The notes below the pieces were generated by a model. That model ran no database searches, was not told where the DNA came from, and saw only the letters and a program-made list of their open reading frames with translations. Position numbers and translations under genes: made by a program. This document shows positions 62 to 27,829 of a stretch of 64,000 nt of DNA, piece after piece. The stretch's first letter is position 1. Every line of letters starts with the position of its first letter. Origin of the DNA: Erysipelotrichaceae bacterium (GTDB taxonomy: Bacteria > Bacillota_I > Bacilli_A > Erysipelotrichales > Erysipelotrichaceae); the NCBI GenBank assembly GCA_963586925.1, contig CAVAAT010000016.1:30774-94773 (forward strand). Reading direction: 5' to 3'.

Positions 62-89
62 AAAAAATGATAGAAATATCATCTATCAT
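62..89 (-). terminator. Rho-independent terminator downstream of the nifB-like gene (stem atgataga / tctatcat, then T-run on minus strand)
   Basis: 8-bp perfect inverted repeat at 67-74 / 82-89 followed by a T-tract read on the minus strand; lies directly after the stop of the 118..957 gene. Confidence 0.5.
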
Positions 90-117: not shown

Positions 118-957
118 TTACAAACAACCACAAGTCCTCGTAGTGCCATCACTTAATACTAAAACATCAGCACGACATCTACTACAAGTAGTCAACTCTT
201 CTAAATGTTTCGAACACAGATAACGCATTCTTTCTACTTCACCAATGTTAGGGATTTCTTCTTCTAAGATATTTTCATTAGGTATGACTGGTAAGATATT
301 ATGGATCAAGCAACCATACTCTTTAGCTTTGATAGCGATAGCTTCTATTTCAGAATCATTTCTCCCTTTGACATATACTGTATTGATCTTTACTTTTAAA
401 CCTGCTTCAATTGCCTTTTTAATACCGTTCCATTGTCCTTTTAAGAAAGCATCATATGCTTCATAAGTTTTTTTAGAAGCAATATGCTCATAGATCTTCA
501 TTGCTGTCTCTACCGTTAAAGCATTGACAGTAACAGTTAATGTATCAACTAATCCCTTTAGACTATCAACATTTTCCTCAAGTAATAAGCCATTAGTAGA
601 GACACAAAGTAATAACTTGGGATATTTTTCATGTATCACTTTAAAAGTCTCTATGGTTTTTTTAGACAATAAAGGTTCTCCAGGACCAGCAATACCTACT
701 ACTAAAAAATTTGGATCGATATTAACTGCCATATCTACTTTTTTTACTGCTTCTTCTACCGTCAATACATTAGAGGCGACTCCCGGCCTACAACCATGAT
801 AACAAGCATCAACAGTAGGTTTACAAAAACAACATTTGATATTACAAGGATAAGCCACTGGTAAATGCATTCTACCAGAAGCTTTAAAGCTATTATTAAA
901 ACAAGGATGCTTTCTAATAAGTTGTTCTCTTTCAAATAAATCATTACTAATATCCAT
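118..957 (-). CDS. NifB-family radical SAM protein (FeMo-cofactor-biosynthesis-like core, no NifX-like C-terminal domain)
   Basis: 279 aa; HPCFNN...RMHLPVAYPCNIKCCFC matches the NifB HPC...RMHLPVA..CNIQCNYC CxxxCxxC region; overlaps the upstream nifH-like gene by 11 nt. Confidence 0.85.
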   Translation of the reverse strand: MDISNDLFEREQLIRKHPCFNNSFKASGRMHLPVAYPCNIKCCFCKPTVDACYHGCRPGVASNVLTVEEAVKKVDMAVNIDPNFLVVGIAGPGEPLLSKKTIETFKVIHEKYPKLLLCVSTNGLLLEENVDSLKGLVDTLTVTVNALTVETAMKIYEHIASKKTYEAYDAFLKGQWNGIKKAIEAGLKVKINTVYVKGRNDSEIEAIAIKAKEYGCLIHNILPVIPNENILEEEIPNIGEVERMRYLCSKHLEELTTCSRCRADVLVLSDGTTRTCGCL

Positions 958-1753
958 ATAAGCTATTCATCTCTTCATAAAATTCTTTGCGATCCCAAGG
1001 AGTATTATTTATTACTTCATGTTGTTGTAAGATATATTCACTTGCTTGAAGATAAGCATCATAAGTTTCTTTGCTACAATTTTGATCAATAGCAGTCAAA
1101 CCTTTTAATTCATTTAAAGGGATCATTTCATCATGAGGAATGACACTGATAAGAGGCACATTAATTTTAGAAGCAAACTTCTCTACTATTACTTTTTCGT
1201 TATCAAATCCAGCACTATTTAGTATCAAACCTTTGACTACTTTCTTATTCTCATTCATACCTTTAGTGATATTATTTGCTGCATATAAAGAAGCTTGTTC
1301 ACCTGATGAAACAATATAGATCTCATTAGCGTAACCCTTAGATATCGGCGTAGCAAATCCTCCACAGACTACATCTCCTAAAACATCATATATGACTACA
1401 TCAAGATCATCTAATAACTTCTTTTGGGATAATAAACCTAATGCCATGATAAGACCTCTACCAGCGCATCCCACTCCTGGTTTTGGTCCTCCTACTTCCG
1501 CACATAAAATATCATATCTTCCTTTAATGACACATTCATTAATATCACATTCTTTTTCAATGATTTGTTCATACTTTTCTAAGATTGAGGAAATATAACC
1601 ACCAGTGATCAAACGCACAGTATCTTGTTTAGGATCACAACCAATTAGACCAACTTTATAGCCCTTTTGAGCTAAAAGAACCGCAAGATTAGCTGAAAAA
1701 GTTGATTTACCGATTCCACCTTTACCATAAATTGCTATCCTTTTTTTAATCAT
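947..1753 (-). CDS. NifH/BchL-family ATPase (nitrogenase iron protein-like)
   Basis: 268 aa; IAIYGKGGIGKST P-loop, CDPKQDT, GVGCAGRG and VVCGGFA (both 4Fe-4S Cys ligands) near-identical to NifH. Confidence 0.9.
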   Translation of the reverse strand: MIKKRIAIYGKGGIGKSTFSANLAVLLAQKGYKVGLIGCDPKQDTVRLITGGYISSILEKYEQIIEKECDINECVIKGRYDILCAEVGGPKPGVGCAGRGLIMALGLLSQKKLLDDLDVVIYDVLGDVVCGGFATPISKGYANEIYIVSSGEQASLYAANNITKGMNENKKVVKGLILNSAGFDNEKVIVEKFASKINVPLISVIPHDEMIPLNELKGLTAIDQNCSKETYDAYLQASEYILQQHEVINNTPWDRKEFYEEMNSLYGY

Positions 1754-2942
1754 GAAAATGCTCCTTTAACTTTCTAGTCAAATATTTCATTCCTGAAACA
1801 CCAAATAACGACTCATTATCTTCTACAGAATCCCAAACAGGAGCTGTAAAAGGTATATATAAACATTCTTCATTATGACCATAGACATTTGATGAACCAA
1901 AAGATATCGCACAATCTAATTCTTTTCTAAATTCATTTAATTCATAACCGCCAACATCAGCTTCTAACCAATCACATATACCTAATTCATCTAATTTTTC
2001 TACACCATAACTATCACTACTTACCGCAAGTTTACAATCAAATTCTTCCTTTAACATCTTAGCTAAGCTAACAGCATAATAACAATCAGCTTCGATCATA
2101 ACATATCTTTTAGAAAGATATGTTTTAAGATAATCGATATCGTCACTTAATTCTTCTCTTTCTTTATCTAACTTATCAAAGATATTTTGATCAATCTCTT
2201 TACCTGTGATCTCACTTATCTTTTTTATAAAATCTTTGATCGCAGAAAAACCGATCGGAGCATATGTATCACTACGCTCATTTAATAAACCAATGTAAAT
2301 CACTTTAGCTTTACTATATTCTTGTAGATCTTTATCTATATCAAACTCGACGGAAATGGAAGGTGCTAAAACTAAGCCACAATAATCTTCAACTATCTTT
2401 TTAAGTTCTAACATATTCTTTTTAGAATTATAAACCGAAGCTGCCATTCCATCTAACGCTATCCTTTTACCATCAAATTCATGCTCAATATTTAACCAAC
2501 TAATAAAATCATCATAACTCTTACGATAGCCATCATTATCCTCACCAAATAAACTACTACCATCTTCCAAAAATACCTTGATACCTGTATCCTTTTGATA
2601 TTGTTCAATGATATCTTGATAATCTTCGCCGATCATACTTGTTGCACAAGTCAATATCACAAATATGACTTTCGGACTATAAACTCTAGCTGCCTTATAT
2701 AAAGCTGCTTGTAATTTACTTGTAGTACCTAAAGCAAGTTCATATTGATAGATCGCAGTAGTAGGTAATATTGGACATTTATCAGCCAATAAGAATATCA
2801 TTCTATAACCACCAGCACAACCTGTAGGACCATGAACGATCGCTAAAGAGTTATTGATGCTACAAGAAAAAGAGATGATTCCACCCATTGCACAGCCATG
2901 ACTTGATTCAATCCTTGAACTTATTTGTGTAGTTGTATACAT
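1746..2942 (-). CDS. Nitrogenase component-1-type oxidoreductase, alpha-like subunit (NifD/NifE-like, short form)
   Basis: 398 aa; IVHGPTGCAGGY resembles NifD/NifE ISHGPVGCGQY; Cys-rich N-terminus; overlaps neighbours on both sides. Confidence 0.8.
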   Translation of the reverse strand: MYTTTQISSRIESSHGCAMGGIISFSCSINNSLAIVHGPTGCAGGYRMIFLLADKCPILPTTAIYQYELALGTTSKLQAALYKAARVYSPKVIFVILTCATSMIGEDYQDIIEQYQKDTGIKVFLEDGSSLFGEDNDGYRKSYDDFISWLNIEHEFDGKRIALDGMAASVYNSKKNMLELKKIVEDYCGLVLAPSISVEFDIDKDLQEYSKAKVIYIGLLNERSDTYAPIGFSAIKDFIKKISEITGKEIDQNIFDKLDKEREELSDDIDYLKTYLSKRYVMIEADCYYAVSLAKMLKEEFDCKLAVSSDSYGVEKLDELGICDWLEADVGGYELNEFRKELDCAISFGSSNVYGHNEECLYIPFTAPVWDSVEDNESLFGVSGMKYLTRKLKEHFHD

Positions 2943-4282
2943 TCTGGTAACTCCTTTGCGTTAAAGACGCTCTCTGTAAAATCAAAGCCTTGCATTGCCA
3001 TTCTTAGCTTATCGCCAAAATTAACTGCTCCTGCATAACCTTCATGAGGGACAGTATAAATAGTGATCGGAACAAAAGGAATATGATGTTTTTTACAAAC
3101 ATGTAATTCTTGATATCCACCAGCCCATACATCAAATTTGATCGTAGTAGCTAATTCCTCAAGTTCATATAAACTAGCAGAAACAATGAAATTTCTTACT
3201 TTCAAATGATGTGTTTCCAATAAATGTTTTAGATCTCTCTGAGAATTCTGATGAGGATAAAATAGGACAGCCGTATCGATATCCATTTCATAATCATTTA
3301 ATAAATGTAGTAAACCGATAAGTCTTCCTGGTCCTCCTGAGATAAATATCTTTTTACCCTTTAATTCAGCTTTATTTTCTTCAAACTTATAACGATATTC
3401 ATCTTCTAACTCTTTGATCTCTTTTGTTTTGTCTAAACCTAATTTAGTAGTGATCTCAGTTAACCATTCGGTAGTTCCAGAAAAGCCATAGGGCGAACGC
3501 CAACTTAACATTGGTACCCCATCTTTTTCCATATCATAAACATAATCACCACATACTGCAGGACAGACTACCGCATTACCTTTAGCAGTCATGGCTTTTT
3601 GTACATCTTCTAATTTACTTCCCCCAGATAAGACAGTCTTAACCTCTACACCAACTTTATCAAGCATCCTTAAACATTCACCGATCTCTCTTTCATTAGA
3701 GCGTGTAGGCCAATGCCAGCCTATTAAGTTAATGCCACTTCTTTCACCTTTATATTTTCCTAAAAAAGGTTTAATTAAAGCTGTCATTGCAGGATTATAT
3801 CCTGCTTGAGGACTTTGCCCCATGATATTAGATGCTTGGATTGATGTGGTAGTGATACCTGTATATTCTTCTATCTGTCTTTCTATATCATCTAGCTCAA
3901 TGCCAGAAACGATCAGCTCATCAGTAGGAACTAAAACAAATAACTTGGGATCCTTTTTACCAACTATCTTCATCAATCTATCGGTGAAAGATCTTCTCAC
4001 AATGAGATTTCCAGTGACAACCTGTGTAGGAGTAAATTCTAAAGTGATCGCTGGTATTTTACCTAAATCAAAATCAACTTCTCCCATAGCTACTACCGCA
4101 AAACGAACATGATAAGAGCAACCTTTAGCTCCTACCATGATAGGAAAAACATCATCCATAGTCGCTAATACTCGATAAGCAGACATTATTGGACCTAACA
4201 CTTGATAATCAGCCCATAACTCATTTTCCGATAATTTCCAATCGTTAGTTAATTTTTCTAAACTTCCGTTATACCATTTCAT
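2921..4282 (-). CDS. Nitrogenase component-1-type oxidoreductase, beta-like subunit (NifK/NifN-like, short form)
   Basis: 453 aa; MVGAKGCSYHVRF resembles NifK HGSQGCVAYFRS; family-typical alpha/beta domain layout; 1-nt gap to the upstream permease gene. Confidence 0.8.
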   Translation of the reverse strand: MKWYNGSLEKLTNDWKLSENELWADYQVLGPIMSAYRVLATMDDVFPIMVGAKGCSYHVRFAVVAMGEVDFDLGKIPAITLEFTPTQVVTGNLIVRRSFTDRLMKIVGKKDPKLFVLVPTDELIVSGIELDDIERQIEEYTGITTTSIQASNIMGQSPQAGYNPAMTALIKPFLGKYKGERSGINLIGWHWPTRSNEREIGECLRMLDKVGVEVKTVLSGGSKLEDVQKAMTAKGNAVVCPAVCGDYVYDMEKDGVPMLSWRSPYGFSGTTEWLTEITTKLGLDKTKEIKELEDEYRYKFEENKAELKGKKIFISGGPGRLIGLLHLLNDYEMDIDTAVLFYPHQNSQRDLKHLLETHHLKVRNFIVSASLYELEELATTIKFDVWAGGYQELHVCKKHHIPFVPITIYTVPHEGYAGAVNFGDKLRMAMQGFDFTESVFNAKELPECIQLHK

Positions 4283-4283
4283 A

Positions 4284-5249
4284 CTATTCTGATACTAATC
4301 CCTTTTGTAATTCTTCTTTAGTCTTTTTTCTTTCGATCGTATACTTGATATTTTTGATCGATGCACTTATGATCAAGATCAAAATTGTCGCAATATAAGG
4401 AATTGAAGAGATAAGATCAACGCTATAACCTGCAAGTTGTAATCTATTAGCTAAAGCTTGAGCTGCACCGAAGAAAACTGAAGCAAGTGCAGTATAGATT
4501 GGATCAGCACCTGTGATATTTGTAGCTGACATACCTATATAACCTCTTCCTGCTGTTATATCTCTTTGGAACCAACTAACATAACCCATCGACATAAAAC
4601 ATCCACCAAGTCCTGCCATGATACCAGCAATAGCGAATGATAAATAATAGATCTTAATAGGATCAATGCCAACAGAAGTTGCAGCAGCTGGATTTTCACC
4701 TACTGAACGGATCCTCAAACCTAAAACTGTCTTTTTTAAAACATAAGCCATTAACAAAGTGCAGATTATTGCTACATAAGTCAAGATATTATGCCCTGAT
4801 AATATTTCACCCAATACTGGTATATCTTTGATAAGAGGTATATCGATATTAGGTAATACTGGTGAATTCAAATGTCCAACAGTACTTGCTTTTTGACCAG
4901 TCAAGAGATACATGACAAATACAGTTGCTCCACTCATGCCGGTATTCATTGCGATCGAAGCTAAGTATAAGTCTACTTTCAAAGAGAATGTACAATAACT
5001 AAGTATTAAAGTGATGATGACTGAAGCAAGTACACCTGCTAATAAACCTAACCAAACATTTTGACTGTAACCTCCTACTAAGACACCAGTCAAAGAGGAA
5101 GCAAGCATCATACTTTCGATAGCCATATTTAATACACCAGACTTTTGAGTTATAACGGCCGATAATGCACCAAAAACCAAAGGTGTAGAGATACGGATGA
5201 TGTTATTGATAAATGAAGGCATGCTAGCCCACGTAAATAAAGATTCCAT
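4284..5249 (-). CDS. ABC transporter permease (BMP/nucleoside-type system, NupC/YufQ-like)
   Basis: 321 aa polytopic membrane protein; start overlaps the stop of the upstream permease. Confidence 0.8.
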   Translation of the reverse strand: MESLFTWASMPSFINNIIRISTPLVFGALSAVITQKSGVLNMAIESMMLASSLTGVLVGGYSQNVWLGLLAGVLASVIITLILSYCTFSLKVDLYLASIAMNTGMSGATVFVMYLLTGQKASTVGHLNSPVLPNIDIPLIKDIPVLGEILSGHNILTYVAIICTLLMAYVLKKTVLGLRIRSVGENPAAATSVGIDPIKIYYLSFAIAGIMAGLGGCFMSMGYVSWFQRDITAGRGYIGMSATNITGADPIYTALASVFFGAAQALANRLQLAGYSVDLISSIPYIATILILIISASIKNIKYTIERKKTKEELQKGLVSE

Positions 5250-6334
5250 TACTTACTTTCCTCCTTTATTGCTTCTTTTTGAGCTGATCTTATGATCGCT
5301 CTATTTTTAAGTCCACTCATAAAACTCTTAGCAGCGATAAGCAAGATGATCACTGATTGAGCTATATAAACAAATTCAATAGGTATATCTGTATTGACAT
5401 TTAAGATATTAGCTCCTGCTTTAATGTAAGCTAATAAGAATGCACCAAGAGGTACCATAAATGGATTCTTTCTAGCAAGTACTGCGACTAATAAGCCATC
5501 AGCAGCAAGTCCAGGTAAAGCAGTCCAGATATAACGGTCATAAACCCCCATTATATCTATTGCTCCTCCAATCGCACATAAGCTGATACCAATAGCTTCA
5601 GCTATCAAAACATTCTTATTGACATTTAATCCCGCATATCTAGCAAAATCAGGATTTTCACCACATATTCTCATCGAGAATCCACCTTTACTATAGTAGA
5701 ATAAGATACCTACAACTATTACTACGATAAGTCCTAATATCAAACCTGTATTGATATTAGAATTCTTGATAAATTCAAATAAAGAGATCTTACCATCAAA
5801 TTTCATTGAAGCAAGATAAGTGATATCCGGATCTCTAAGTACTGTCTTTAATAAATAGATACAAACATAAGTGATGATATAATTCATCATGATCGAGACA
5901 ACCACTTCATTTGCGCCAAACTTTTGATCCATTACTGTTGGTATGCTACCAACAACTGCTCCCATAATGGCACAAGCTATCAAAATCACAATGATAAGTA
6001 AGATGTGAGGCAAGTTGGCTCCAAATCCAGTTGTGATCATTGCGGTAAGACAGCCAGCTAACATATAAACGCCATCACCGATCATATTAAAACGATTGAC
6101 AGCGTAAATAAAACACATTCCTACACCTGTAAACAAATAAGGAATAAATCTACTCATGATCATACCAAAACGCCTAGCCGAGGTAAATGGACCAATACTG
6201 AACAAATAAACAGCTTCTGTTGGATCATCAGTTACTACTAACATCACAATGATACACAACAAATAAGCAATGACCATGCTTAAGACCGTCCTAAATATTT
6301 CAAAAGCAAACTCGATCTTTCTTGTCTTTTTCAT
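5249..6334 (-). CDS. ABC transporter permease (BMP/nucleoside-type system, NupB/YufP-like)
   Basis: 361 aa polytopic membrane protein; translationally coupled on both sides. Confidence 0.8.
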   Translation of the reverse strand: MKKTRKIEFAFEIFRTVLSMVIAYLLCIIVMLVVTDDPTEAVYLFSIGPFTSARRFGMIMSRFIPYLFTGVGMCFIYAVNRFNMIGDGVYMLAGCLTAMITTGFGANLPHILLIIVILIACAIMGAVVGSIPTVMDQKFGANEVVVSIMMNYIITYVCIYLLKTVLRDPDITYLASMKFDGKISLFEFIKNSNINTGLILGLIVVIVVGILFYYSKGGFSMRICGENPDFARYAGLNVNKNVLIAEAIGISLCAIGGAIDIMGVYDRYIWTALPGLAADGLLVAVLARKNPFMVPLGAFLLAYIKAGANILNVNTDIPIEFVYIAQSVIILLIAAKSFMSGLKNRAIIRSAQKEAIKEESK

Positions 6335-7884
6335 TAGTCATCACCTTCCATTTCTTCTTGACTCATCGTTTTTAAGCCTAACATATATTCACCTAAAGTA
6401 TCTTCATTCACATCACTCATCTTCTTGAAGTGAGCAACAAACTTTCCTTTATACATAACTAGCAAGCGATCAGAAACTTCTAATACTTCATTTAGATCAG
6501 AAGATATCAATAAGGCTCCAACTTTACCTGTTCTTGTCTTTTCAATCAACTTCTTATGGATGATCTCAGTAGTACCAACATCGATCCCTCTTGTTGGCTG
6601 ATTAGCTACGATGAAGTTCGCTCCACTATTGAACTCTCTAGCCACGATAACTTTTTGAATATTACCACCTGATAATAAACGAACTGGCTCAGTACGATCA
6701 TCACAGGCAATCTCATATTCGGCGATACAATCATCAATAAACTTATTCATTTTCTTCATGTCTAATAATAAGCCTTTATTAAACTCTTTATTAGACAAAT
6801 ATATAGAGGCGATATTCTCTCTTATCGATAAAGATTGAGCACAACCATATTTCATCCTATCTTCCGATATTGAACAAACGCCTAATTTTCTTATATTATC
6901 AATACTTAAATTATGGATACTCTTACCATTGATCAAGATTTTACCAAAATCAAAACTACGCATTCCCGTTAATATCTCAGATAATTGATTCTGTCCATTA
7001 CCTTCAACTCCTGCAATACCAACGATCTCACCAGCATGGATCTTCAAAGAAATGTTATCAATGATCTTTTTATTATTTTCATCAAAATAAGTTAGATCAT
7101 CGATCTCTGCGATCGTCTCCTTAACTTCGGCTTTAGCTTTTTCAATGGAATTAACCGCATCTCTTCCTACCATTAGTTGCGATATTTTCGCAGGGCTAAG
7201 ATTACAGATGTCATCATTAGCAACTAGCTTTCCCTTACGTAATACAGTGATCCTATCACATAACTCCATGATCTCTTCTAATTTATGAGAGATAAAGACG
7301 ATCGATAAACCTTGCTTAGCCATACTTTTTAATTGCACGAACAATTCTTTAGTTTCTTGAGGTGTCAATACAGCAGTTGGTTCATCTAGAATGAGTACTT
7401 TACAATTTCTGACTAAGGCTTTTAAGATCTCTACTTTTTGTTTAGTACCTACCCCAAGATCATTAACGATATCAGTAGCATTGATCTTTAAGTTATATTT
7501 ATCAGCAACTTCTTGGGTCTTTTTTATAGCCTCTTGATAATTAAAGTTAATGCCTTTATGTGGTTCAATACCTAACATAACATTTTCTGCTACACTTAAT
7601 GATGGTACTTGCATGAAATGTTGATGGACCATACCAATACCATAAGAGATAGCTTCTATAGGTGAAGTGATATTCACTTTCTCACCATTTATATAGACAT
7701 CTCCTTCTTGATGATCTTCTAATCCAAAAAGTATCTTCATTAATGTTGTTTTACCTGCTCCATTTTCACCAACAAGAGCATGTATCTCCCCTTCATTTAC
7801 CGATAGATCAATATGATCATTAGCTTTAAAGCCATTACTATAGATCTTGGTTATATTTTTCATTAGTAGGATTTCCTTAGCCAT
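6334..7884 (-). CDS. ABC transporter ATP-binding protein with duplicated ATPase domains (sugar/nucleoside-type, NupA/RbsA-like)
   Basis: Two Walker A/ABC-signature modules (GENGAGKTT, LSGG); start chosen at MAKEILLMKN (7884), preceded by GGAGGT RBS, not the upstream in-frame Met at 7932. Confidence 0.85.
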   Translation of the reverse strand: MAKEILLMKNITKIYSNGFKANDHIDLSVNEGEIHALVGENGAGKTTLMKILFGLEDHQEGDVYINGEKVNITSPIEAISYGIGMVHQHFMQVPSLSVAENVMLGIEPHKGINFNYQEAIKKTQEVADKYNLKINATDIVNDLGVGTKQKVEILKALVRNCKVLILDEPTAVLTPQETKELFVQLKSMAKQGLSIVFISHKLEEIMELCDRITVLRKGKLVANDDICNLSPAKISQLMVGRDAVNSIEKAKAEVKETIAEIDDLTYFDENNKKIIDNISLKIHAGEIVGIAGVEGNGQNQLSEILTGMRSFDFGKILINGKSIHNLSIDNIRKLGVCSISEDRMKYGCAQSLSIRENIASIYLSNKEFNKGLLLDMKKMNKFIDDCIAEYEIACDDRTEPVRLLSGGNIQKVIVAREFNSGANFIVANQPTRGIDVGTTEIIHKKLIEKTRTGKVGALLISSDLNEVLEVSDRLLVMYKGKFVAHFKKMSDVNEDTLGEYMLGLKTMSQEEMEGDD

Positions 7885-7947
7885 ATTTACCTCCATATAA
7901 AATAAATGGGGATGAAAAATTTCAATCCCCAATTTATATATTTTTAA

Positions 7948-9045
7948 CTATTGTTGAGCGCTTCTCCAAGCATCAAATTCTTCGAAATTTGCGAAAGAGA
8001 AATAATAAGATTTTGGTTCAACTTTGCCATTGATGATGTCATCCTTCAAAGCAGTAACAGCATCTTGAACTTCTTGAGAAACGATCTCTTTGTAATGATC
8101 ATTATAAGCAAGATCCATTGCTCCAGTATCTACACCTTGAACATCTACTTGTCCCCAAACAGAATCATCACCGTTCATGAACTTATCAAATACAGCAACG
8201 ATAGAAACATCGATCTTCTTAACAACAGAAGTAACGATTGAATCAACTAATTTAGCATCATCACTATCTTGATATGCTAACCATTGGTCATCATCAACAC
8301 CGATCAAATAGAAGCCATTATCACGACCACCCATGTCATAAGCAGCTTGCCAACATCCTTGATAACCTAATGCGAATACTACATCATAACCATTCTGCAT
8401 CAATTCTTTAGTTACATCACTGAATAAAGCAGCATCCCACTTGCCTGTGTGAGCATTGTAACAAGAGATTGAAGAATCATAGTACTTAGCACCATCAAAG
8501 AATCCAGCAACGAAATCATTGATCAATGGGCTATCGTTATCAGTAACAACAGCAACTTTCTTATTTGCTGATAGACTAGCAGCTACATAACCACCTAAGA
8601 AGCTTGCACTATTAGCACCATAAGCAATAGCAGTAACATTAGAATGTTCACCGATCTCAGCAGTTGGAGCTACATCAAAGATAACAAACTTGATATCAGG
8701 ATATTCATCTGCATGTTCTAAGATAATGTCAGATAATGTGTTACCGGCTTGTGAAACAACATATGAATACTTACCACTATCACATACATCCAAAACAGAT
8801 GATTCATAAGTAGCACCGTTATTGTTTCCCAATTCAATAGCAGTAGGGTCAAAGCCATACTTCTCAGAAACTTCTTGACATGCTTTCCAACCATTGTCGT
8901 TGTAAGATAAGTCACCAAGTTGCATACAGAAATATGCTAAACCAGGATTTTGATCGCTAGTACCGTTGTCATCCCCATTATTTGAACAGCCTACTAGAGA
9001 AAGTGTCATTAATAAAGCTAATAACACGATTGAAATTTTTTTCAT
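7948..9045 (-). CDS. BMP-family ABC transporter substrate-binding lipoprotein (PnrA/Med-like)
   Basis: 365 aa; signal peptide with lipobox LVGCS; BMP-family fold motifs; GAGGAGG RBS. Confidence 0.85.
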   Translation of the reverse strand: MKKISIVLLALLMTLSLVGCSNNGDDNGTSDQNPGLAYFCMQLGDLSYNDNGWKACQEVSEKYGFDPTAIELGNNNGATYESSVLDVCDSGKYSYVVSQAGNTLSDIILEHADEYPDIKFVIFDVAPTAEIGEHSNVTAIAYGANSASFLGGYVAASLSANKKVAVVTDNDSPLINDFVAGFFDGAKYYDSSISCYNAHTGKWDAALFSDVTKELMQNGYDVVFALGYQGCWQAAYDMGGRDNGFYLIGVDDDQWLAYQDSDDAKLVDSIVTSVVKKIDVSIVAVFDKFMNGDDSVWGQVDVQGVDTGAMDLAYNDHYKEIVSQEVQDAVTALKDDIINGKVEPKSYYFSFANFEEFDAWRSAQQ

Positions 9046-9068
9046 TTCATTTTCCTCCTCGGTTGACT

Positions 9069-9077
9069 ATTATAGCA
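9069..9077 (-). promoter_or_regulatory. Extended -10 promoter element (TGcTATAAT) for the ABC-importer / nitrogenase-like operon
   Basis: Perfect TATAAT with upstream TG, 22 nt upstream of GAGGAGG RBS; no convincing -35. Confidence 0.35.
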
Positions 9078-9123: not shown

Positions 9124-9156
9124 AAAATTAAAAAAGATGGTATATTTCAACCATCT
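9124..9156 (-). terminator. Rho-independent terminator of rpoD (agatggt / accatct stem, T-run)
   Basis: 7-bp inverted repeat overlapping the rpoD stop followed by tttttaatttt on the minus strand. Confidence 0.55.
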
Positions 9157-23693: not shown

Positions 23694-24104
23694 TTAATTA
23701 ACTTTTGATTTTTTGAATACAAGATCAATAAAATAAACAACCACTGTGATCACAAGTACAGCCGCAACAACAAATATATAGTTATTACAATAAATATTTA
23801 TCACTTCACTTGTCACATCTACTATCTTAATGACTTTATATTCTTTATAAAAATCAACCCAAGAGAAGATCGTTAAAGCTGTTAAGATCATAACAGCGTA
23901 GTCATTGATCCATTTAACTTTTCCAAATACCTCTACAAAGATCACTACAGCAGTCACTACTAGCAATTCTCTTAAAATTGACACTTCATAAATATGATAA
24001 TCAAAAGGGATTGAAAAATATTTATATGAAGCATACTTTATAAACAAACAAGCAATTAAAGCAATTGCTGACACGATCTTTGATGTCTTGATAACTTTTT
24101 TCAT
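23694..24104 (-). CDS. Small polytopic membrane protein (paralog of 25761..26171)
   Basis: Start set at MKKVIKT (AAGGAG RBS); 136 aa; clear paralogy with 25761..26171 (KW[IL]N[DN]Y...SW[VL]DF...KVIK[IV]). Confidence 0.6.
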   Translation of the reverse strand: MKKVIKTSKIVSAIALIACLFIKYASYKYFSIPFDYHIYEVSILRELLVVTAVVIFVEVFGKVKWINDYAVMILTALTIFSWVDFYKEYKVIKIVDVTSEVINIYCNNYIFVVAAVLVITVVVYFIDLVFKKSKVN

Positions 24105-24252
24105 CTTTTTTCTCCTTTTATTACCCAATGATAAACATCCTATCTTTACTACTATCATAGCACAATTTGAAACATTTAGAATTATTTTCTTATAAATTAG
24201 ATGAAAAAATCAGGCTAATTATAGCCTGATCAATATGTTTAACTATCTTGAC

Positions 24253-24687
24253 TTATTTATCTACACTTAGTCCATCCGCAAAAGCTTGAACCAAATTATC
24301 ATGGAAGTTTTCTGAAGTGATCTCATAACTCTTGCCATCTATATCACTTATAACTTGATCATTTGTTAAAACTGTGATTTCTGTACCATCACTTTTAACA
24401 AAAGTAAACCAAAATAATCCGATTAGATCTTCTCCCTCATCATTTGTAGAGCTTAAATGAATATCCGAATCTTTAAGTGAAAGAGACTTGAAAAAAGCAA
24501 ACACAGGGTCCATTTGCTTTCCTGTTACACTTTCTTCAGAGTATGGATAGCCTTTTATCTCTACTACTTCACTAAAAAAATCATCTGTAAATACATCATT
24601 ATTCATAGCTGTTTTATTATTTTTGCTACAACTAACTACACTTAGTACTATAACAATAGTTAACACTAAGCTAATAATTCTTTTCAT
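24253..24687 (-). CDS. Hypothetical lipoprotein
   Basis: 144 aa; signal peptide with lipobox VVSCS; no recognisable domain. Confidence 0.6.
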   Translation of the reverse strand: MKRIISLVLTIVIVLSVVSCSKNNKTAMNNDVFTDDFFSEVVEIKGYPYSEESVTGKQMDPVFAFFKSLSLKDSDIHLSSTNDEGEDLIGLFWFTFVKSDGTEITVLTNDQVISDIDGKSYEITSENFHDNLVQAFADGLSVDK

Positions 24688-24810
24688 AAATTTCTCTACC
24701 TCCTATGTGTGTACATATATTATAAATATTTTTTTCTCAAAAATATTTAAGATTTGTTTAAAATAACAGTTATATAATGTAAAATGATATATATAAAAGA
24801 GGTACACAAA

Positions 24811-25665
24811 ATGAATGATTACCAAGTGAGATTATTTCTATCACTTTCTGAAACTAGTAGCTTATCTAAGACCGCAAAAGAATTTGGTATAAACTATCAA
24901 AACGTTACCTATCAGCTAGATAGATTAGAAGAGGAATTTAATTCGAAGTTTTTTGAAAGAGACAAAAAGGGATGCATAATCACTCAATCAGGCATTGTAT
25001 TTCAAGCATTTGCTAAAAATTTCTTAACTAGTTATGAAAATACTAGAGAAAAGATAACTTTAGTAGAAGATAATATTTTATTTGGTGTTAATTATCAGAT
25101 TATCCAGCCAATCGTCTCTACTTTCTATAATAATTACCCAAATGAAAAAATCGTATATATCCCTATGGAATACTCTAATCTTTATAATGCTTTAAAAGAT
25201 GGAGAAATATCATGCTTTTTAGGTCATGAAAAAAAATGGGATAAAAATATATATTACGAGCCTCTACTCAAAGACTATTTATGCATAGTTACTAATGATA
25301 AGCAAACACTAAATAAAAAAGGATCCATTGCATTTTCTAAGCTGGAAGGTTTAACAATTGATATAAGTAAACATATTTATGTAAAAAATGCGATTCCACT
25401 AAAACAGCTCGCCTTAAAAAACACAATTAAAACAGACAGTATACCAGCAGTATTCGAGCATCAAATACTATACGGTCAGTCAGCAACTATTGTCCCTTCG
25501 TTATATAGAAAATTATATCCCATGGATAACCTTTTCACTCCGATCAGTGATTCTCATATTGCTTTCGGTCTATATTATAAAAATAAAAATAAACAAATTG
25601 ATGATCTAATTACTAAGTTAAAAACAATTTCTAAAGAATTTAACAAATCCTTAATAGATGATTGA
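24811..25665 (+). CDS. LysR-family transcriptional regulator
   Basis: N-terminal HTH (MNDYQVRLFLSLSETSSLSKTAKEFGINYQNVTYQLDRLEEEF); start at 24811 after AAAGAGGT RBS. Confidence 0.8.
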   Translation: MNDYQVRLFLSLSETSSLSKTAKEFGINYQNVTYQLDRLEEEFNSKFFERDKKGCIITQSGIVFQAFAKNFLTSYENTREKITLVEDNILFGVNYQIIQPIVSTFYNNYPNEKIVYIPMEYSNLYNALKDGEISCFLGHEKKWDKNIYYEPLLKDYLCIVTNDKQTLNKKGSIAFSKLEGLTIDISKHIYVKNAIPLKQLALKNTIKTDSIPAVFEHQILYGQSATIVPSLYRKLYPMDNLFTPISDSHIAFGLYYKNKNKQIDDLITKLKTISKEFNKSLIDD

Positions 25666-25760
25666 TTACTAATATTAAAAGAAGTCCGAAGACTTCCACT
25701 CAATTAATTTTAAACTTTTCACGATTATATGTGAAATCTGTTTTACGAATCATCACACGC

Positions 25761-26171
25761 CTATTTTTTCTTTACTGCAACTAATTCATAAATGTAGAAA
25801 ACCAATGTAACCATCAAAATCCCAGCAACTATAAATATTTTACAATTACTATTAAATTCAATTACATTTCCCGAAGTTTCGATCACTTTAATTACTTTAT
25901 TATTGTTAAAGAAATCAAGCCATGACAAGAAAGAAATTGATACAAAAGATATCACAACATAATTATTTAACCATTTTATATCAGTTAAAGCATCAAGTAA
26001 GATAACTATTGTGGTTATAAGTAAAAGTTTACTAAGTACTCCAACAGTTATAATAGTATATTGAATAGGGGTTGAGAAATAATCTAATGTTGCATACTCA
26101 ATATACAAACTAGCAAATAATCCTATCGCCAATAACACTTTGATAATTTTATTAATCAGACCATTGTGCAT
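25761..26171 (-). CDS. Small polytopic membrane protein (paralog of 23694..24104)
   Basis: 136 aa, about 4 predicted TM segments; overlaps 3' end of upstream secreted-protein gene by 20 nt. Confidence 0.6.
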   Translation of the reverse strand: MHNGLINKIIKVLLAIGLFASLYIEYATLDYFSTPIQYTIITVGVLSKLLLITTIVILLDALTDIKWLNNYVVISFVSISFLSWLDFFNNNKVIKVIETSGNVIEFNSNCKIFIVAGILMVTLVFYIYELVAVKKK

Positions 26172-27417
26172 ATTCAGACCTATAAGTACAAAGATTATTA
26201 TTTAATAGAAGATCATTATTGTAATTAGTTAAAGCAGTATTGCGAACTGTAGTATCTGAATAAGAATATACCGAACTTGGTTGATGAACCCAATTAAATT
26301 CTCCAGTATTCAAATATCCACCTCTAAATCTTCCTTGAGTATCTGCATATCTAATGACTAACACATATCCATGAACAACAGTTGGATCATTAACACAGCC
26401 CCTTTTAGTTGCTTTATAACTATAATTAGCACTACTGCTTAATCTTACTGACTCTTGCAATGTATTAGCAGCCGAATATCCAACTCCCAATACATCTAAA
26501 ATAATCTTAACTGCCGATACACTAACATCTAAAGCATCTCCAATCACAGTTAAAGCAGTACTAGTAACAAAATTAACCCAATTAGCTGATACCTTGGTAT
26601 AAGTATTCCTTGTTTCAGTAACTTTTACTGCGACAGAGCGGTTTAAAGCCGTACAAGTTAATTGAGTATTAGATTTAACTTTGTTGGTATACATTGGAAA
26701 TTTAGATTTAAGATGACTTAATAGTTGAGCATCGCTCTGTGGAACAGAACTACTAGATACAGTTGATGAATTATTCAATGATTCTAATAAAATATCAAAA
26801 TCTGGTTCTATAACAACATTACCATCATCATCAGTTATAACATTAATACCTTTGATCAATTTAACTTCATCTATCTTTCCTTCATCTAATAATTCATAGA
26901 TCTTTTCAAGTAATGTGTCACTGATCTCAAAATGATAACCTTCCCTAAAATGAGTTGTAATATAAGCTGTATCTTTTTCCTCAATATAAAGCCAATCTTC
27001 ATCAATATCATAAACTAATTTTTGTTTAAACCCATCTTGTCCATACCAAAGACAAACTTCTCTTCCATCATCAGTATAATATTGTATGTAAACATTATCA
27101 TCATCACAATAATATATTTCTCTGATCTTCAAAAACTTTTTTAATAATTTTTCAAATTGTGGACAATCGTATGCTGTTTCTTCTCCACCAGTAGCTTCAA
27201 TTACTGCATTGACTGCTTCTAATTCATCAAATTCATCTACAAAACCGTAAGCTAGAAACTCTTTCTTCTGTGAATCATCTAACTCTTTAGTACGAGAGTT
27301 AAAAGTAAAAATGATTCCAGAATCAATCTCAGTGTTATCTGCAAATACTAATCTTGTAGAAAAGCAACTCAAAAAGATTGTAAATATAGCCAACATCAAA
27401 CATAACTTTTTTTTCAT
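26152..27417 (-). CDS. Secreted protein of unknown function
   Basis: 421 aa; N-terminal signal peptide (MKKKLCLMLAIFTIFLSCFSTRLVFA); Ser/Thr/Asn-rich C-terminal half; no recognisable domain. Confidence 0.6.
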   Translation of the reverse strand: MKKKLCLMLAIFTIFLSCFSTRLVFADNTEIDSGIIFTFNSRTKELDDSQKKEFLAYGFVDEFDELEAVNAVIEATGGEETAYDCPQFEKLLKKFLKIREIYYCDDDNVYIQYYTDDGREVCLWYGQDGFKQKLVYDIDEDWLYIEEKDTAYITTHFREGYHFEISDTLLEKIYELLDEGKIDEVKLIKGINVITDDDGNVVIEPDFDILLESLNNSSTVSSSSVPQSDAQLLSHLKSKFPMYTNKVKSNTQLTCTALNRSVAVKVTETRNTYTKVSANWVNFVTSTALTVIGDALDVSVSAVKIILDVLGVGYSAANTLQESVRLSSSANYSYKATKRGCVNDPTVVHGYVLVIRYADTQGRFRGGYLNTGEFNWVHQPSSVYSYSDTTVRNTALTNYNNDLLLNNNLCTYRSEYAQWSD

Positions 27418-27762
27418 AAACTAACTCCTTTCTGTTTGAATTTTTACCATCATCAATTTTTGTATTACTTATTATTAAATCAATAAACGAATTTAGACTT
27501 ATGTATCAAACTAATCTATCTAGTTTCAATTTCATTAAATTCTATTACATTTTCAGTATAAAATATGATAGAGACTCAAACAACACAAAAGATTTTTATC
27601 TTAATATAAATTTTTTTGAAGTCAGACTCTAATTAATCTAGTCTTCACATTAAAGATCATTTTATATGTTTTACAAATGAATGCCCTAACAAACAATTTG
27701 ATAGCAATCGCTGAAGAACTCGCTGATCAGCCAAATTATCAATAAAAATGTATTGTCATCAC

Positions 27763-27808
27763 AAAAAAACATCGATGTTACCTATGATTAAGGTACTATC
27801 GATGTTTT
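27763..27808 (-). terminator. Rho-independent terminator ending the SPFH/TPM module operon
   Basis: Long hairpin (aacatcgat...tacct...aggta...atcgatgtt) followed by a 7-T run on the minus strand, 20 nt after the stop of 27830..28312. Confidence 0.5.
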
Positions 27809-27829
27809 AATTTGATCAAGAATGATCAC

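What the first reader, a model, noticed from the sequence alone, without database searches (positions are those of the whole stretch)
118..9077. Nitrogenase-like NifK/D/H/B-type enzyme genes fused into one operon with a BMP-family ABC importer
Seen in sequence: eight co-oriented genes run 9045->118 with 1-nt gaps or overlapping reading frames (4282/4284, 2921-2942, 1746-1753, 947-957). They are bracketed by an extended -10 promoter (9069-9077, directly downstream of the rpoD terminator) and a terminator hairpin (62-89). Gene order is SBP lipoprotein, double ATPase, two permeases, NifK/N-like (453 aa), NifD/E-like (398 aa), NifH-like (268 aa, both 4Fe-4S Cys ligands and P-loop intact), NifB-like radical SAM (279 aa).

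Established knowledge: genuine NifD/NifK are roughly 480-520 aa, and N2 fixation needs nifE/nifN and usually nifV/X. None of those is here, and the host context is plain housekeeping. Among nitrogenase-like families, BchLNB/ChlLNB, CfbCD and NflHD do not use a NifB homolog. The methylthio-alkane reductase MarBHDK is the characterised group with a NifB-like gene, but its reported order in Rhodospirillum is B-H-D-K.

Inference: this is a group-IV/Mar-like reductase carrying a complex NifB-derived cofactor, whose substrate is delivered by the dedicated importer. I do not recognise this as a described architecture.
Basis: partly seen in the sequence, partly recalled or inferred. Interest (0 to 1): 0.9.

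Follow-up and report, generated by a model that had tools for sequence, protein, structure and literature searches.

The report
Importer-linked nitrogenase-like reductase, new clade
A low-GC gut-type bacterium carries one operon that joins a nucleoside-type uptake pump to a rare, uncharacterised relative of nitrogenase with its own cofactor-building enzyme; its relatives sit next to pyrimidine-nucleoside-splitting enzymes, which suggests a new kind of substrate for this enzyme superfamily.

Summary
The eight co-oriented, overlapping genes are real, at the stated coordinates. They are a Bmp-type ABC importer (four genes), then two nitrogenase component-1 homologues, a NifH-like ATPase and a minimal NifB-like radical SAM enzyme.

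The 453-aa protein is the alpha (D/E)-like one and the 398-aa protein the beta (K/N)-like one, so the order is D-K-H-B.

It is not Mar-like. The D subunit keeps only one of three P-cluster cysteines, with an invariant Asp at another position. It keeps the Cys275 equivalent but lacks both the MarD Arg-His motif and His442. The K subunit keeps all three cysteines. This predicts a [4Fe-4S] interface cluster plus a NifB-made 8Fe cluster, as in NifEN.

The family is tiny: four full-length 50%-identity clusters among 1.84 billion representatives, and 22 loci in 185,579 species genomes. It is monophyletic with no resolved sister.

Nearly every member sits beside an ABC importer, usually Opp/Dpp-type and Bmp-type only in the window's lineage. 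Nucleoside or nucleotide enzymes recur next to it: uridine phosphorylase, pyrimidine-nucleoside phosphorylase, five nucleoside hydrolases, and nucleotidases.

Best reading: an ATP-driven reductase acting on an imported, probably pyrimidine, nucleoside-derived substrate. The chemistry is unknown.

The parts
9069..9077 (-). Extended -10 promoter element TGCTATAAT, about 24 nt upstream of the SBP start codon. The leader is short and holds no riboswitch.
   Evidence: Read directly. The consensus scan did not list it because there is no -35 match. Rfam gave no hit anywhere in the window.
9135..9156 (-). Intrinsic terminator of the upstream rpoD gene. It marks the 5' boundary of the operon.
   Evidence: Terminator scan; sequence.
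7948..9045 (-). Bmp/PnrA-family substrate-binding lipoprotein (365 aa). It has a signal peptide ending in a lipobox (LVGC).
   Evidence: Pfam PF02608, E = 8e-36. The nearest solved structures are Lbp, BmpD, BmpA and PnrA (nucleoside binders) at E = 1e-15 to 1e-10, with the DxSYN and GVDDDQ motifs aligned.
6334..7932 (-). Double-cassette ABC ATPase. The likely true start is the ATG at 7884, giving 516 aa.
   Evidence: Two ABC_tran domains. The gene is called as 516 aa on the identical contig L023.
5249..6334 (-). ABC permease 1 (BPD_transp_2, 361 aa).
4284..5249 (-). ABC permease 2 (BPD_transp_2, 321 aa). Its stop codon lies 1 nt before the start of the D-like gene.
2921..4282 (-). Alpha (NifD/NifE)-like component-1 subunit, 453 aa. 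C55 corresponds to NifD Cys88, G30 replaces Cys62, and the invariant D121 replaces Cys154. C240 corresponds to Cys275 and MarD Cys270. G389-Y390 replace MarD Arg428-His429, and T407 replaces His442. H394 is invariant and C396 is nearly invariant.
   Evidence: NCBIfam best hits are NifE (93 bits) and N2ase-I-alpha (76 bits), all below cutoff. Profile against PDB. Conservation. Ligand columns. AF2 model has pLDDT 88 and the nitrogenase component-1 fold.
1746..2942 (-). Beta (NifK/NifN)-like component-1 subunit, 398 aa. It keeps all three P-cluster-type cysteines (C17, C42, C99, matching NifK Cys70, Cys95, Cys153).
   Evidence: The three cysteines are invariant in 22 of 22 members. Column mapping. 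hhalign scores: NifN 232 and NifK 162, against NifE 200 and NifD 155.
947..1753 (-). NifH-like Fe-protein ATPase, 268 aa. The P-loop, switch I and II, and cluster cysteines C96 and C130 are present.
   Evidence: PF00142, E = 2e-75. Best NCBIfam hits are CfbC (283 bits) and NifH (266 bits), both below cutoff. Invariant residues.
118..957 (-). Minimal NifB-like radical SAM enzyme, 279 aa, without a NifX domain. It has CxxxCxxC (C38, C42, C45) plus invariant C19, H31, C118, C258 and C261.
   Evidence: PDB NifB entries 6y1x and 7jmb at E = 3e-56 and 7e-53. TIGR01290 nifB scores 196 bits over model positions 7-275. Conservation.
62..89 (-). AT-rich hairpin followed by a T-run, about 30 nt after the NifB-like stop codon. 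Probable operon terminator.
   Evidence: Read. The scan did not flag it because it has too few G-C pairs.

Best explanation
The operon encodes an uptake-coupled, ATP-dependent low-potential reductase of the nitrogenase superfamily. It belongs to a small, previously uncharacterised clade.

Proposed mechanism (inferred unless marked otherwise):
1. The Bmp-type ABC importer brings in a riboside-type compound.
2. The NifB-like enzyme builds an 8Fe, L-cluster-type core.
3. That core is held in the alpha-like subunit at Cys240, possibly with His394, Cys396 or Tyr390.
4. The NifH-like dimer, with a [4Fe-4S] cluster on Cys96 and Cys130, hydrolyses ATP and passes electrons to a [4Fe-4S]-type interface cluster. 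That cluster is ligated by three cysteines of the beta-like subunit (C17, C42, C99) and by Cys55, with or without Asp121, of the alpha-like subunit.
5. Electrons then pass to the active-site cluster, which reduces the substrate.

The predicted cluster complement resembles NifEN ([4Fe-4S] plus L-cluster) more than nitrogenase or MAR (P-cluster plus cofactor).

From the recurrent gene neighbours in relatives, the substrate is most likely a pyrimidine nucleoside or something derived from one: a modified base, side chain or sugar. The reaction type is unknown. It could be reductive bond cleavage, as in MAR and ISR, or ring reduction, as in DPOR, COR and CfbCD.

Shown here: gene content, ligand patterns, clade distinctness and synteny. 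Inferred: cluster types, electron path and substrate class.
For: Gene set and tight coupling.

NifB identity: E = 3e-56 to solved minimal NifB, with all radical-SAM and auxiliary-cluster Cys/His positions invariant in 16 of 16 members.

Ligand pattern: 'G-C-D / C275 kept / G-Y / T' in the D-like protein of the window and all 12 family representatives placed in the superfamily alignment, and C-C-C in all K subunits. Three independent alignments agree: phmmer, profile against PDB including MarD in native numbering, and MAFFT of 151 superfamily members.

Distinct clade: members score at least 479 bits against the family profile and everything else at most 169 bits among 1.84 billion representatives. 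Bootstrap support for monophyly is 100%, with no sister above 11%.

Importer linkage: in about 30 loci the D-K-H(-B) genes are adjacent to an ABC importer. It is Opp/Dpp-type in most lineages and Bmp-type in the window's lineage, a non-orthologous replacement. The Bmp+DKHB module occurs in different chromosomal neighbourhoods.

Nucleoside link (operon-adjacent genes):
- Five tandem nucleoside hydrolases (UriH/RihA/RihC-like) between the importer and D, in the 72%-identical relative.
- Uridine phosphorylase, 317 bits against a cutoff of 280, after NifB in L001.
- Pyrimidine-nucleoside phosphorylase, 601 bits against a cutoff of 559, after NifB in L035 and L003.
- NT5C nucleotidase in the Halanaerobiales type.
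- YqeG-type HAD phosphatase and a nucleotide pyrophosphatase/phosphodiesterase in the Anaerotruncus type.
- PfkB kinases, cyclic amidohydrolases and a carbamoyltransferase in Anaerolineales L021.

The window's SBP is nearest to nucleoside-binding Bmp/PnrA proteins.
Against: No biochemical data exist for any member.

The window's own operon has no nucleoside-cleaving enzyme, so the nucleoside link is borrowed from relatives at 36-72% identity.

In most of the family the importer is Opp/Dpp-type. Its nearest solved relatives bind peptides, opines or nickel, which fits a nucleoside less well than a conjugate such as a peptidyl- or aminoacyl-nucleoside or an Amadori-type compound.

The window's SBP is only about 20-25% identical to characterised nucleoside binders.

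The L-cluster is inferred only from NifB co-occurrence and one conserved Cys. The second ligand used by MarD (His429) and by NifD (His442) is absent.

The alpha/beta assignment rests on modest score differences, and the fold search cannot separate the two.

The trees are neighbour-joining on a distant alignment. I had no labelled Group IV-A, IV-D, IV-E or VI reference sequences, so the clade could coincide with a published but unnamed or uncharacterised group.
Confidence: 0.5

Rival explanations
1. It is the same kind of importer-coupled nitrogenase-like reductase, but the substrate is not nucleoside-derived. It could be a peptide-like, opine/Amadori-type or other small conjugate taken up by the Opp/Dpp systems. 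On this reading the nucleoside enzymes are neighbours by chance or act on a by-product.
For: Most members use Opp/Dpp-type importers whose closest solved relatives bind peptides, agropinic acid or nickel. The TIM-barrel neighbour weakly resembles fructoselysine 3-epimerase, and a PfkB neighbour weakly resembles fructoselysine kinase. YhfZ-type regulators accompany many members.
Against: Four unrelated nucleoside- or nucleotide-cleaving enzyme families recur in operonic positions in separate lineages. The importer was replaced by a Bmp (nucleoside-type) system in the window's lineage.
Confidence: 0.22
2. It is a Mar- or Isr-like carbon-sulfur bond reductase used for sulfur salvage.
For: The closest characterised systems with a B-H-D-K set, MAR and ISR, both cleave C-S bonds (PMC13474568, PMC11423573). 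The '1 Cys in D + 3 Cys in K' pattern is the one reported for IsrDK. ISR is also linked to ABC importers. The substrate could be a thio- or methylthio-nucleoside, which would reconcile this reading with the context.
Against: The MarD P-cluster cysteines and the Arg428-His429 motif are absent. IsrD lacks Cys275 and IsrB is BciD-like rather than NifB-like, whereas here Cys275 is kept and NifB is genuine. The family does not group with the Mar-like or Isr-like clades. No cysteine, methionine or sulfite genes lie next to any of the loci examined. The habitats are sulfide-rich (gut, hypersaline sediment).
Confidence: 0.13
3. It is a cofactor-biosynthesis or scaffold system, with the ABC transporter supplying a metal or a precursor. 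This would be NifEN-like maturation, or a tetrapyrrole-type reduction as in CfbCD, DPOR or Group VI.
For: The predicted cluster complement is NifEN-like. Dos Santos et al. 2012 proposed metal transport coupled to cofactor assembly for transporter-linked homologues. One member lies about 6 kb from cobalamin genes.
Against: No downstream client enzyme or tetrapyrrole pathway is conserved with the cluster. The importers are of the organic-solute type and come with GntR/UTRA, YhfZ or Crp regulators typical of catabolic operons. Catabolic nucleoside enzymes recur.
Confidence: 0.06
4. It is a cryptic nitrogenase that fixes N2.
For: It has a NifH/D/K/B-like gene set. Group IV-A Nfa systems have been linked to N2 fixation despite missing residues (PMC13474568).
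Against: Two alpha P-cluster cysteines, His442 and the homocitrate-region residues are missing. There are no nifE, nifN, nifV or PII genes. All hits fall far below the NifD and NifK cutoffs. It is fused to a solute importer.
Confidence: 0.01

Closest known systems
Methylthio-alkane reductase MarBHDK (Group IV-C; PDB 9FMG, 9D9U)
   Same: It is a NifH-like, D-K, NifB-like four-protein system. The Cys equivalent to MarD Cys270 and NifD Cys275 is conserved. There is no His442 and no NifEN. The predicted fold matches (TM 0.75 to 9fmg_A).
   Different: D lacks Cys66 and Cys158 (Gly and Asp here) and the Arg428-His429 cofactor ligand pair (Gly-Tyr here). The gene order is D-K-H-B, not B-H-D-K. It is fused to an importer. 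There is no sulfur-metabolism context. The profile score to MarD is only 100 bits, against at least 479 within the family.
Isethionate reductase IsrBHDK (Group IV-F, Rhodobacter capsulatus)
   Same: It shows the same '1 Cys in D (equivalent to Cys88) + 3 Cys in K' pattern, which predicts a [4Fe-4S] interface cluster. It is genetically linked to ABC importers that deliver the substrate.
   Different: IsrD has no Cys275 equivalent, and has Arg and Pro/Ser where this family has Gly and Asp. IsrB is BciD-like, not NifB-like. An Isr-like clade (99% bootstrap) is separate from this family.
NifEN (FeMo-cofactor maturase)
   Same: The predicted metallocluster complement is the same: one [4Fe-4S] at the subunit interface (3 + 1 Cys) and a NifB-derived 8Fe cluster near a single Cys (NifE Cys250, equivalent to Cys275), with no His442. 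Among curated models the best hit of the 453-aa protein is NifE.
   Different: The three-cysteine donor is the beta-like subunit, not the alpha-like one. There is no NifDK client. The context is catabolic and importer-linked. Scores are far below the NifE cutoff (93 against 505 bits).
DPOR (BchLNB/ChlLNB)
   Same: An aspartate sits at a cluster-ligand position of one subunit, opposite a three-cysteine subunit. It is an ATP-dependent reduction of an organic heterocycle.
   Different: DPOR has no NifB and no Cys275 equivalent. Its Asp is in the beta-like BchB. Its substrate is made in the cell, not imported.
Transporter-linked nitrogenase-like clusters noted by Dos Santos et al. 2012 (e.g. Clostridium botulinum, Alkaliphilus oremlandii)
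   Same: Nitrogenase-like E/N-type genes are co-located with NifH-like and ABC-transporter genes in Firmicutes.
   Different: Those have three Cys in the E-like subunit and none in the N-like subunit, and lack the FeMo-co ligands. Here the pattern is 1 (+Asp) and 3, with Cys275 kept and NifB present.

Membership tests
Nitrogenase NifDK/VnfDK/AnfDK (Groups I-III) | Three P-cluster cysteines in each of alpha (Cys62, 88, 154) and beta (Cys70, 95, 153) | tested here: not met
   Alpha-like: Gly30, Cys55, Asp121. Beta-like: Cys17, Cys42, Cys99.
Nitrogenase NifDK/VnfDK/AnfDK (Groups I-III) | Cofactor ligands alpha-Cys275 and alpha-His442 | tested here: not met
   Cys240 is present, but Thr407 sits at the His442 position and is invariant.
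Nitrogenase NifDK/VnfDK/AnfDK (Groups I-III) | Scores above the curated NifD, NifK, VnfD or AnfD model cutoffs; nifE and nifN present | tested here: not met
   Best scores are 57-93 bits against cutoffs of 427-874. There is no nifEN in the cluster or in the 64-kb window. The rest of the genome was not examined.
Methylthio-alkane reductase MarDK (Group IV-C) | P-cluster ligands MarD Cys66, 91, 158 and MarK Cys32, 56, 121 | tested here: not met
   Two of the three D ligands are replaced by Gly and Asp. The K ligands are present.
Methylthio-alkane reductase MarDK (Group IV-C) | mar2-cluster ligands Cys270 and His429, with Arg428 | tested here: not met
   Cys240 aligns with Cys270, but Gly389-Tyr390 align with Arg428-His429 (9fmg_A native numbering).
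Methylthio-alkane reductase MarDK (Group IV-C) | Branches within the Mar clade | tested here: not met
   The NJ tree and bootstrap place it outside the clade that contains R. rubrum MarD. This is NJ only, using a partial MarD sequence.
Isethionate reductase IsrDK (Group IV-F) | IsrD has a single Cys (equivalent to Cys88); IsrK has three Cys | tested here: met
   Same 1+3 pattern.
Isethionate reductase IsrDK (Group IV-F) | No Cys275 equivalent; radical SAM partner is BciD-like rather than NifB-like; branches with IsrD | tested here: not met
   Cys240 is invariant. The partner is NifB-like at E = 3e-56. The putative Isr-like clade is separate. That clade was identified by ligand pattern only, because no labelled IsrD sequence was available.
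CfbCD (Group IV-B) | A single homomeric D subunit, no K and no NifB; methan_mark_13 model | tested here: not met
   Two different component-1 genes plus NifB are present. TIGR03282 hits only the 398-aa protein, at 46 bits against a cutoff of 268.
DPOR/COR (Group V) | BchN/B/Y/Z models; three Cys in the N/Y subunit and Asp in B; no NifB | tested here: not met
   Scores are 21-57 bits against cutoffs of 324-912. NifB is present and the Cys275 equivalent is present.
Group VI NflHDK (Elusimicrobia type) | No NifB in the genome; no Cys275 or His442; at most four of six P-cluster cysteines; tetrapyrrole and radical-SAM-rich context | tested here: inconclusive
   The four-of-six cysteine feature is met. 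NifB and Cys275 are present, so those features are not met. The context differs. No Group VI sequences were available for a tree.
Group IV-D / IV-E (published clades of unknown function) | Clade membership in the North et al. 2020 tree | not testable with these tools
The review says nearly all Group IV sequences keep Cys270, Arg428 and His429, which this family does not.
NifB (radical SAM carbide-inserting cofactor synthase) | CxxxCxxC plus the Cys/His ligands of the two auxiliary (K1, K2) clusters; similarity to solved NifB | tested here: met
   E = 3e-56 and 7e-53 to 6y1x and 7jmb over 258 residues. C19, H31, C38, C42, C45, C118, C258 and C261 are invariant and C52 is mostly conserved. Mapping these to K1 and K2 ligands is from memory of the published NifB structures. 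The hit is below the TIGR01290 cutoff because the NifX domain is absent.
NifH/Fe-protein family | P-loop, switch I and II, and two cluster cysteines (Cys97, Cys132) | tested here: met
   PF00142 at 254 bits. K11, K16, D40, D123, D127, C96 and C130 are invariant. Scores are below the equivalog cutoffs for NifH, CfbC and BchL.
Bmp/PnrA nucleoside ABC importers | Bmp-fold lipoprotein, double ATPase and two BPD_transp_2 permeases; nucleoside-binding residues | tested here: inconclusive
   The architecture is met. The nearest solved proteins are nucleoside binders, but at E = 1e-15 only. The DxSYN and GVDDDQ motifs align. The ligand was not tested. NCBIfam 'putative B6' transporter models hit below their cutoffs.

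The most novel reading that the evidence does not exclude
This would be the first nitrogenase-superfamily enzyme dedicated to nucleoside or nucleobase metabolism. It would be an ATP-driven enzyme carrying an L-cluster that reductively dearomatises, or cleaves a substituent from, an imported and possibly modified pyrimidine nucleoside. The base or sugar could then be salvaged by ordinary phosphorylases and hydrolases. It occurs in gut and hypersaline anaerobes, including the cultured human-gut species Anaerotruncus colihominis. It would use a cluster arrangement not yet seen in a catalytic homologue: [4Fe-4S] with a 3+1 Cys/Asp ligand set donated mainly by the beta subunit, plus a NifB-derived cluster without the Mar or Nif histidine.
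Probability: 0.35. Interest if true: 0.85.

Novelty: new variant of a known kind. Interest (0 to 1): 0.68.

Why it matters
[quoted passage not shown] The 2026 Chem Rev review names the uncharacterised clades as a main open problem, and notes that gene context has rarely helped (PMC13474568).

Here the context does point somewhere. It gives a specific, testable substrate class: pyrimidine nucleosides or their conjugates. It also gives two importer binding proteins that can be screened directly, and a cultured host, Anaerotruncus colihominis DSM 17241.

If NifB really supplies a cluster to a protein that lacks both known histidine ligands and most P-cluster ligands, that would widen what is known about how nitrogenase-type cofactors are bound and used. 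It would also extend the chemistry of the superfamily beyond N2, tetrapyrroles and C-S cleavage.

Tried and rejected
1. Riboswitch or leader RNA upstream of the operon. Rfam gave no hit in the whole window, and the leader is only about 24 nt.

2. Promoter and terminator statistics. They are kept only as plausible.

3. Host identification. Exact-sequence look-ups returned contig accessions but no organism names. The gene order (era-recO-glyS-dnaG-rpoD ... trmK) and 33% GC indicate a Bacillota member, no finer.

4. Assignment to Group IV-D, IV-E or VI. North 2020 and the Méheust 2020 PMC version are not held. The bioRxiv version gave only descriptive features.

5. Deep placement by neighbour-joining. 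No sister group had more than 11% bootstrap support. Profile-profile scores are nearly flat across alpha-like groups. I do not claim a position.

6. Alpha versus beta assignment by fold. Foldseek gives TM 0.72-0.77 to both NifD- and NifK-type chains, so it does not decide.

7. Ligand type of the Opp-type SBP from PDB neighbours. Only generic peptide, opine and nickel binders came up.

8. NIF3 downstream of NifB in L027. It is probably the conserved housekeeping neighbour (the sigA-...-trmK/NIF3 block in Bacillota, from memory), so I do not count it as part of the system.

9. An earlier mapping of mine mis-assigned NifD Cys62 and Cys88. I corrected it against the S. fredii NifD motifs.

Full report
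**1. The observation**

The junctions are as stated:
- a 1-nt gap between the second permease and the first nitrogenase-like gene (position 4283);
- overlaps of 22, 8 and 11 nt between the four downstream genes;
- 1-nt overlaps among the transporter genes.

Pfam and NCBIfam give the following content:
- a Bmp-family lipoprotein;
- a double ABC ATPase;
- two BPD_transp_2 permeases;
- two Oxidored_nitro (component-1) proteins;
- a Fer4_NifH protein;
- a radical SAM protein whose best family match is NifB.

None of the four nif-like proteins reaches any curated NCBIfam cutoff.

The extended -10 (TGCTATAAT, 9077-9069), the rpoD terminator and the 3' hairpin with T-run can all be read in the sequence. 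Only the rpoD terminator is picked up by the scan, and promoter-like sites are not enriched over shuffles. There is no Rfam hit in the window.

The identical operon is on a public MAG contig, GCA_963621175.1. There it lies between dnaG-rpoD and a sigma-70/trmK block, and the ATPase is called from the ATG that corresponds to window position 7884.

**2. Which subunit is which**

The 453-aa protein scores best against alpha-type models. NifE gives 93 bits, N2ase-I-alpha 76 and NifD 57, against 18 for NifK.

A family profile matches alpha chains in the PDB at 87-110 bits and beta chains at 55 bits or less.

Profile-profile scores point the same way, by modest margins:

| Family profile | NifE | NifD | NifN | NifK |
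|---|---|---|---|---|
| 453-aa family | 261 | 226 | 204 | 146 |
| 398-aa family | 200 | 155 | 232 | 162 |

The fold does not decide. The AF2 model (pLDDT 88) matches NifK, NifD, VnfK and MarD equally well, at TM 0.72-0.77.

**3. Metal-ligand anatomy**

I anchored NifD Cys62, Cys88, Cys154, Cys275 and His442 on a real NifD sequence (S. fredii). MarD Cys270, Arg428 and His429 were anchored on PDB 9FMG in native numbering.

Alpha-like protein:

| Reference position | Residue here |
|---|---|
| NifD Cys62 | Gly30 |
| NifD Cys88 | Cys55 |
| NifD Cys154 | Asp121 |
| NifD Cys275 / MarD Cys270 | Cys240 |
| MarD Arg428-His429 | Gly389-Tyr390 |
| NifD His442 | Thr407 |

The pattern G-C-D-C-G-Y-T is identical in the window protein and all 12 family representatives in the tree. 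The individual residues C55, D121, C240, Y390 and H394 are invariant in 22 of 22 sequences taken from the fetched loci. His394 is also invariant and Cys396 nearly so, one helical turn after the Mar ligand position.

The beta-like protein keeps all three cysteines: C17, C42 and C99, equivalent to NifK Cys70, Cys95 and Cys153. They are conserved in 22 of 22 sequences.

This '1 + 3' pattern is what Morimoto et al. reported for IsrDK, for which they proposed a [4Fe-4S] cluster. IsrD, however, has no Cys275 equivalent, and IsrB is BciD-like rather than NifB-like.

Here the radical SAM protein is a genuine minimal NifB. It matches 6y1x and 7jmb at E = 3e-56 and 7e-53. The CxxxCxxC motif and the additional Cys/His positions are invariant.

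The NifH-like protein has all the functional motifs.

The predicted complement is therefore a [4Fe-4S]-type interface cluster plus a NifB-derived 8Fe cluster held by a single Cys. This is the NifEN arrangement, with the three-cysteine donor on the other subunit. That step is inference.

**4. A small, distinct clade**

A word-indexed search found 59 relatives. All were within the family, at 35-96% identity.

An exhaustive HMMER search of 1.84 billion representatives found four full-length 50%-identity clusters, at 479-760 bits. There is then a gap to 169 bits or less.

Only 22 loci turned up in one-genome-per-species GTDB, which holds 185,579 species. They come from:
- Anaerotruncus colihominis (two genomes, including DSM 17241);
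- Oscillospiraceae and Christensenellales gut MAGs;
- Halanaerobiales;
- Anaerolineales;
- a Rhodospirillaceae MAG.

The window's own species is not among them.

In an NJ tree of 151 superfamily members, with labelled NifD/K/E/N, VnfD/K/E/N and partial MarD and 9spz_A, the results were as follows:
- the D family is monophyletic (100% bootstrap);
- the K family is monophyletic (100%);
- a putative Isr-like clade (x-C-P/S, no Cys275) is separate (99%);
- the clade holding R. rubrum MarD and its Arg-His-motif relatives lies elsewhere in the point-estimate tree, though it was not recovered as a set in any bootstrap replicate;
- no sister of the family exceeds 11%.

Typical uncharacterised Group IV alpha-like proteins score 150-225 bits on the NifE and N2ase-I-alpha models. 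The window's protein scores 93 and 76. It is unusually divergent.

I could not test identity with the published Groups IV-D, IV-E or VI, because no reference sequences were available.

**5. Context across the family**

The order D-K-H is conserved in every locus. NifB is either adjacent or follows an inserted transporter.

There are four synteny types:
- **Window lineage.** Bmp SBP, ATPase and two permeases, then D-K-H-B.
  - The 81% relative has the same importer-D junction in a different neighbourhood.
  - The 72% relative has five tandem IU-nucleoside hydrolases inserted between the importer and D.
- **Oscillospirales/Christensenellales, including Anaerotruncus.**
  - Upstream elements: a nucleotide pyrophosphatase/phosphodiesterase and a YhfZ regulator.
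  - Operon order: D-K-H, OppD-OppF-SBP5-OppB-OppC, then NifB and a HAD phosphatase.
  - Variant endings: one lineage ends instead with pyrimidine-nucleoside phosphorylase (601 bits, cutoff 559), and another with uridine phosphorylase (317 bits, cutoff 280).
- **Halanaerobiales.** A GntR/UTRA regulator, SBP5-OppB-OppC, a TIM-barrel protein (AP_endonuc_2), an NT5C nucleotidase, then D-K-H-B.
- **Anaerolineales and Rhodospirillaceae.** Variants with:
  - a fused NifH-NifH protein;
  - PfkB kinases;
  - cyclic amidohydrolases, a carbamoyltransferase and a creatininase;
  - a queuosine-salvage protein.

Two points follow:
- The importer is a constant partner, but its type is replaced between lineages. 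That argues for an imported substrate rather than a biosynthetic role.
- Four unrelated families of nucleoside- or nucleotide-cleaving enzymes, two of them equivalog-level pyrimidine enzymes, sit in operonic positions in separate lineages.

The window's SBP is nearest to nucleoside-binding Bmp/PnrA proteins, though distantly. The Opp-type SBP is uninformative.

**6. Interpretation**

The best-supported reading is an uptake-coupled, ATP-dependent reductase acting on a (pyrimidine) nucleoside-derived compound.

The reaction type is open. Options include:
- reductive cleavage of a substituent, by analogy with MAR and ISR, for example thio-, methylthio- or side-chain-modified uridines;
- ring reduction, by analogy with DPOR, COR and CfbCD.

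The rivals and their weights are given in the Rival explanations section.

**7. What is known**

The review by North and Shafaat (2026) lists Nfa, CfbCD, MAR and ISR as the only Group IV systems with assigned roles.

Dos Santos et al. (2012) already noted nitrogenase-like genes next to ABC transporters and next to NifH/NifB-like genes. ISR depends on an ABC importer. The general architecture is therefore not new.

My searches for this family, for Anaerotruncus, and for any link between nitrogenase-like enzymes and nucleosides or pyrimidines found nothing. The library is incomplete, so absence there is weak evidence.

**8. Verdict**

It is wrong in family: it is not Mar-like.

It is a new variant of a known kind. 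It has an unusual ligand set and a concrete, testable substrate hypothesis in a culturable gut bacterium.

Noticed in passing
L019 13399-15228; L040 3678-5444: In the Anaerolineales-type members the Fe protein is a single ORF of about 590-610 aa with two Fer4_NifH domains. This would be a covalently fused NifH dimer.
   Followed up: partly
L027 4902-9944 (also L028-L030): Five tandem inosine-uridine nucleoside hydrolase paralogs (UriH/RihA/RihC-like, below the curated cutoffs) sit between the Bmp importer and the D gene. This is in the relative whose D protein is 72% identical to the window's.
   Followed up: partly
window 6334-7932: The ORF listing starts the ABC ATPase at a TTG (532 aa). The identical public contig calls it from the ATG at window position 7884 (516 aa, MAKEILL...), which leaves a 63-nt spacer after the SBP gene.
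   Followed up: yes
window 118-9077 versus the contig of P0002: The window module lies between rpoD and a sigma-70/trmK block. In an 81%-identical relative the same Bmp importer-D junction follows PtsI and glycosyltransferase genes (its contig ends inside the next gene). The module appears to move as a unit. There is no GC anomaly in the window (0.32-0.36).
   Followed up: partly
L031 7464-9802; L032 3844-6182: In the 59%-identical Oscillospiraceae member, a YjjI-like glycyl-radical enzyme and its activase lie directly upstream of D, after a Crp-type regulator. Cobalamin biosynthesis genes lie further upstream on the other strand.
   Followed up: no
L020 522-9981: In the Rhodospirillaceae MAG member the NifB is the long form with a NifX-like domain. 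Nearby are B12-binding and SPASM radical SAM genes, an ECF S-component and a queuosine-salvage (DUF2419) gene.
   Followed up: no
window 24000-28000: A stretch of lower GC (0.28-0.29 against about 0.33). It carries small secreted or lipoprotein-like ORFs and a divergently oriented regulator-like ORF (293 aa). It may be an islet.
   Followed up: no
PDB 9spz_A and 9sq3: The best solved match to the family profile is an entry named only 'Nitrogenase protein alpha chain' (477 aa). Over the aligned region (residues 47-454) it has the Cys88, Cys154, Cys275 and His442 equivalents; the Cys62 position lies just upstream of the aligned region. It looks like a true nitrogenase rather than an NFL. I could not identify it further.
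   Followed up: no
Superfamily hits P0232, P0156, P0172, P0168, P0149: Other uncharacterised component-1 proteins share the Gly/Ser-Cys-Asp pattern at the three P-cluster positions, but have Thr or His instead of the Cys275 equivalent. Their profile-profile score to the family is high (317). They may be related [4Fe-4S]-only systems.
   Followed up: no
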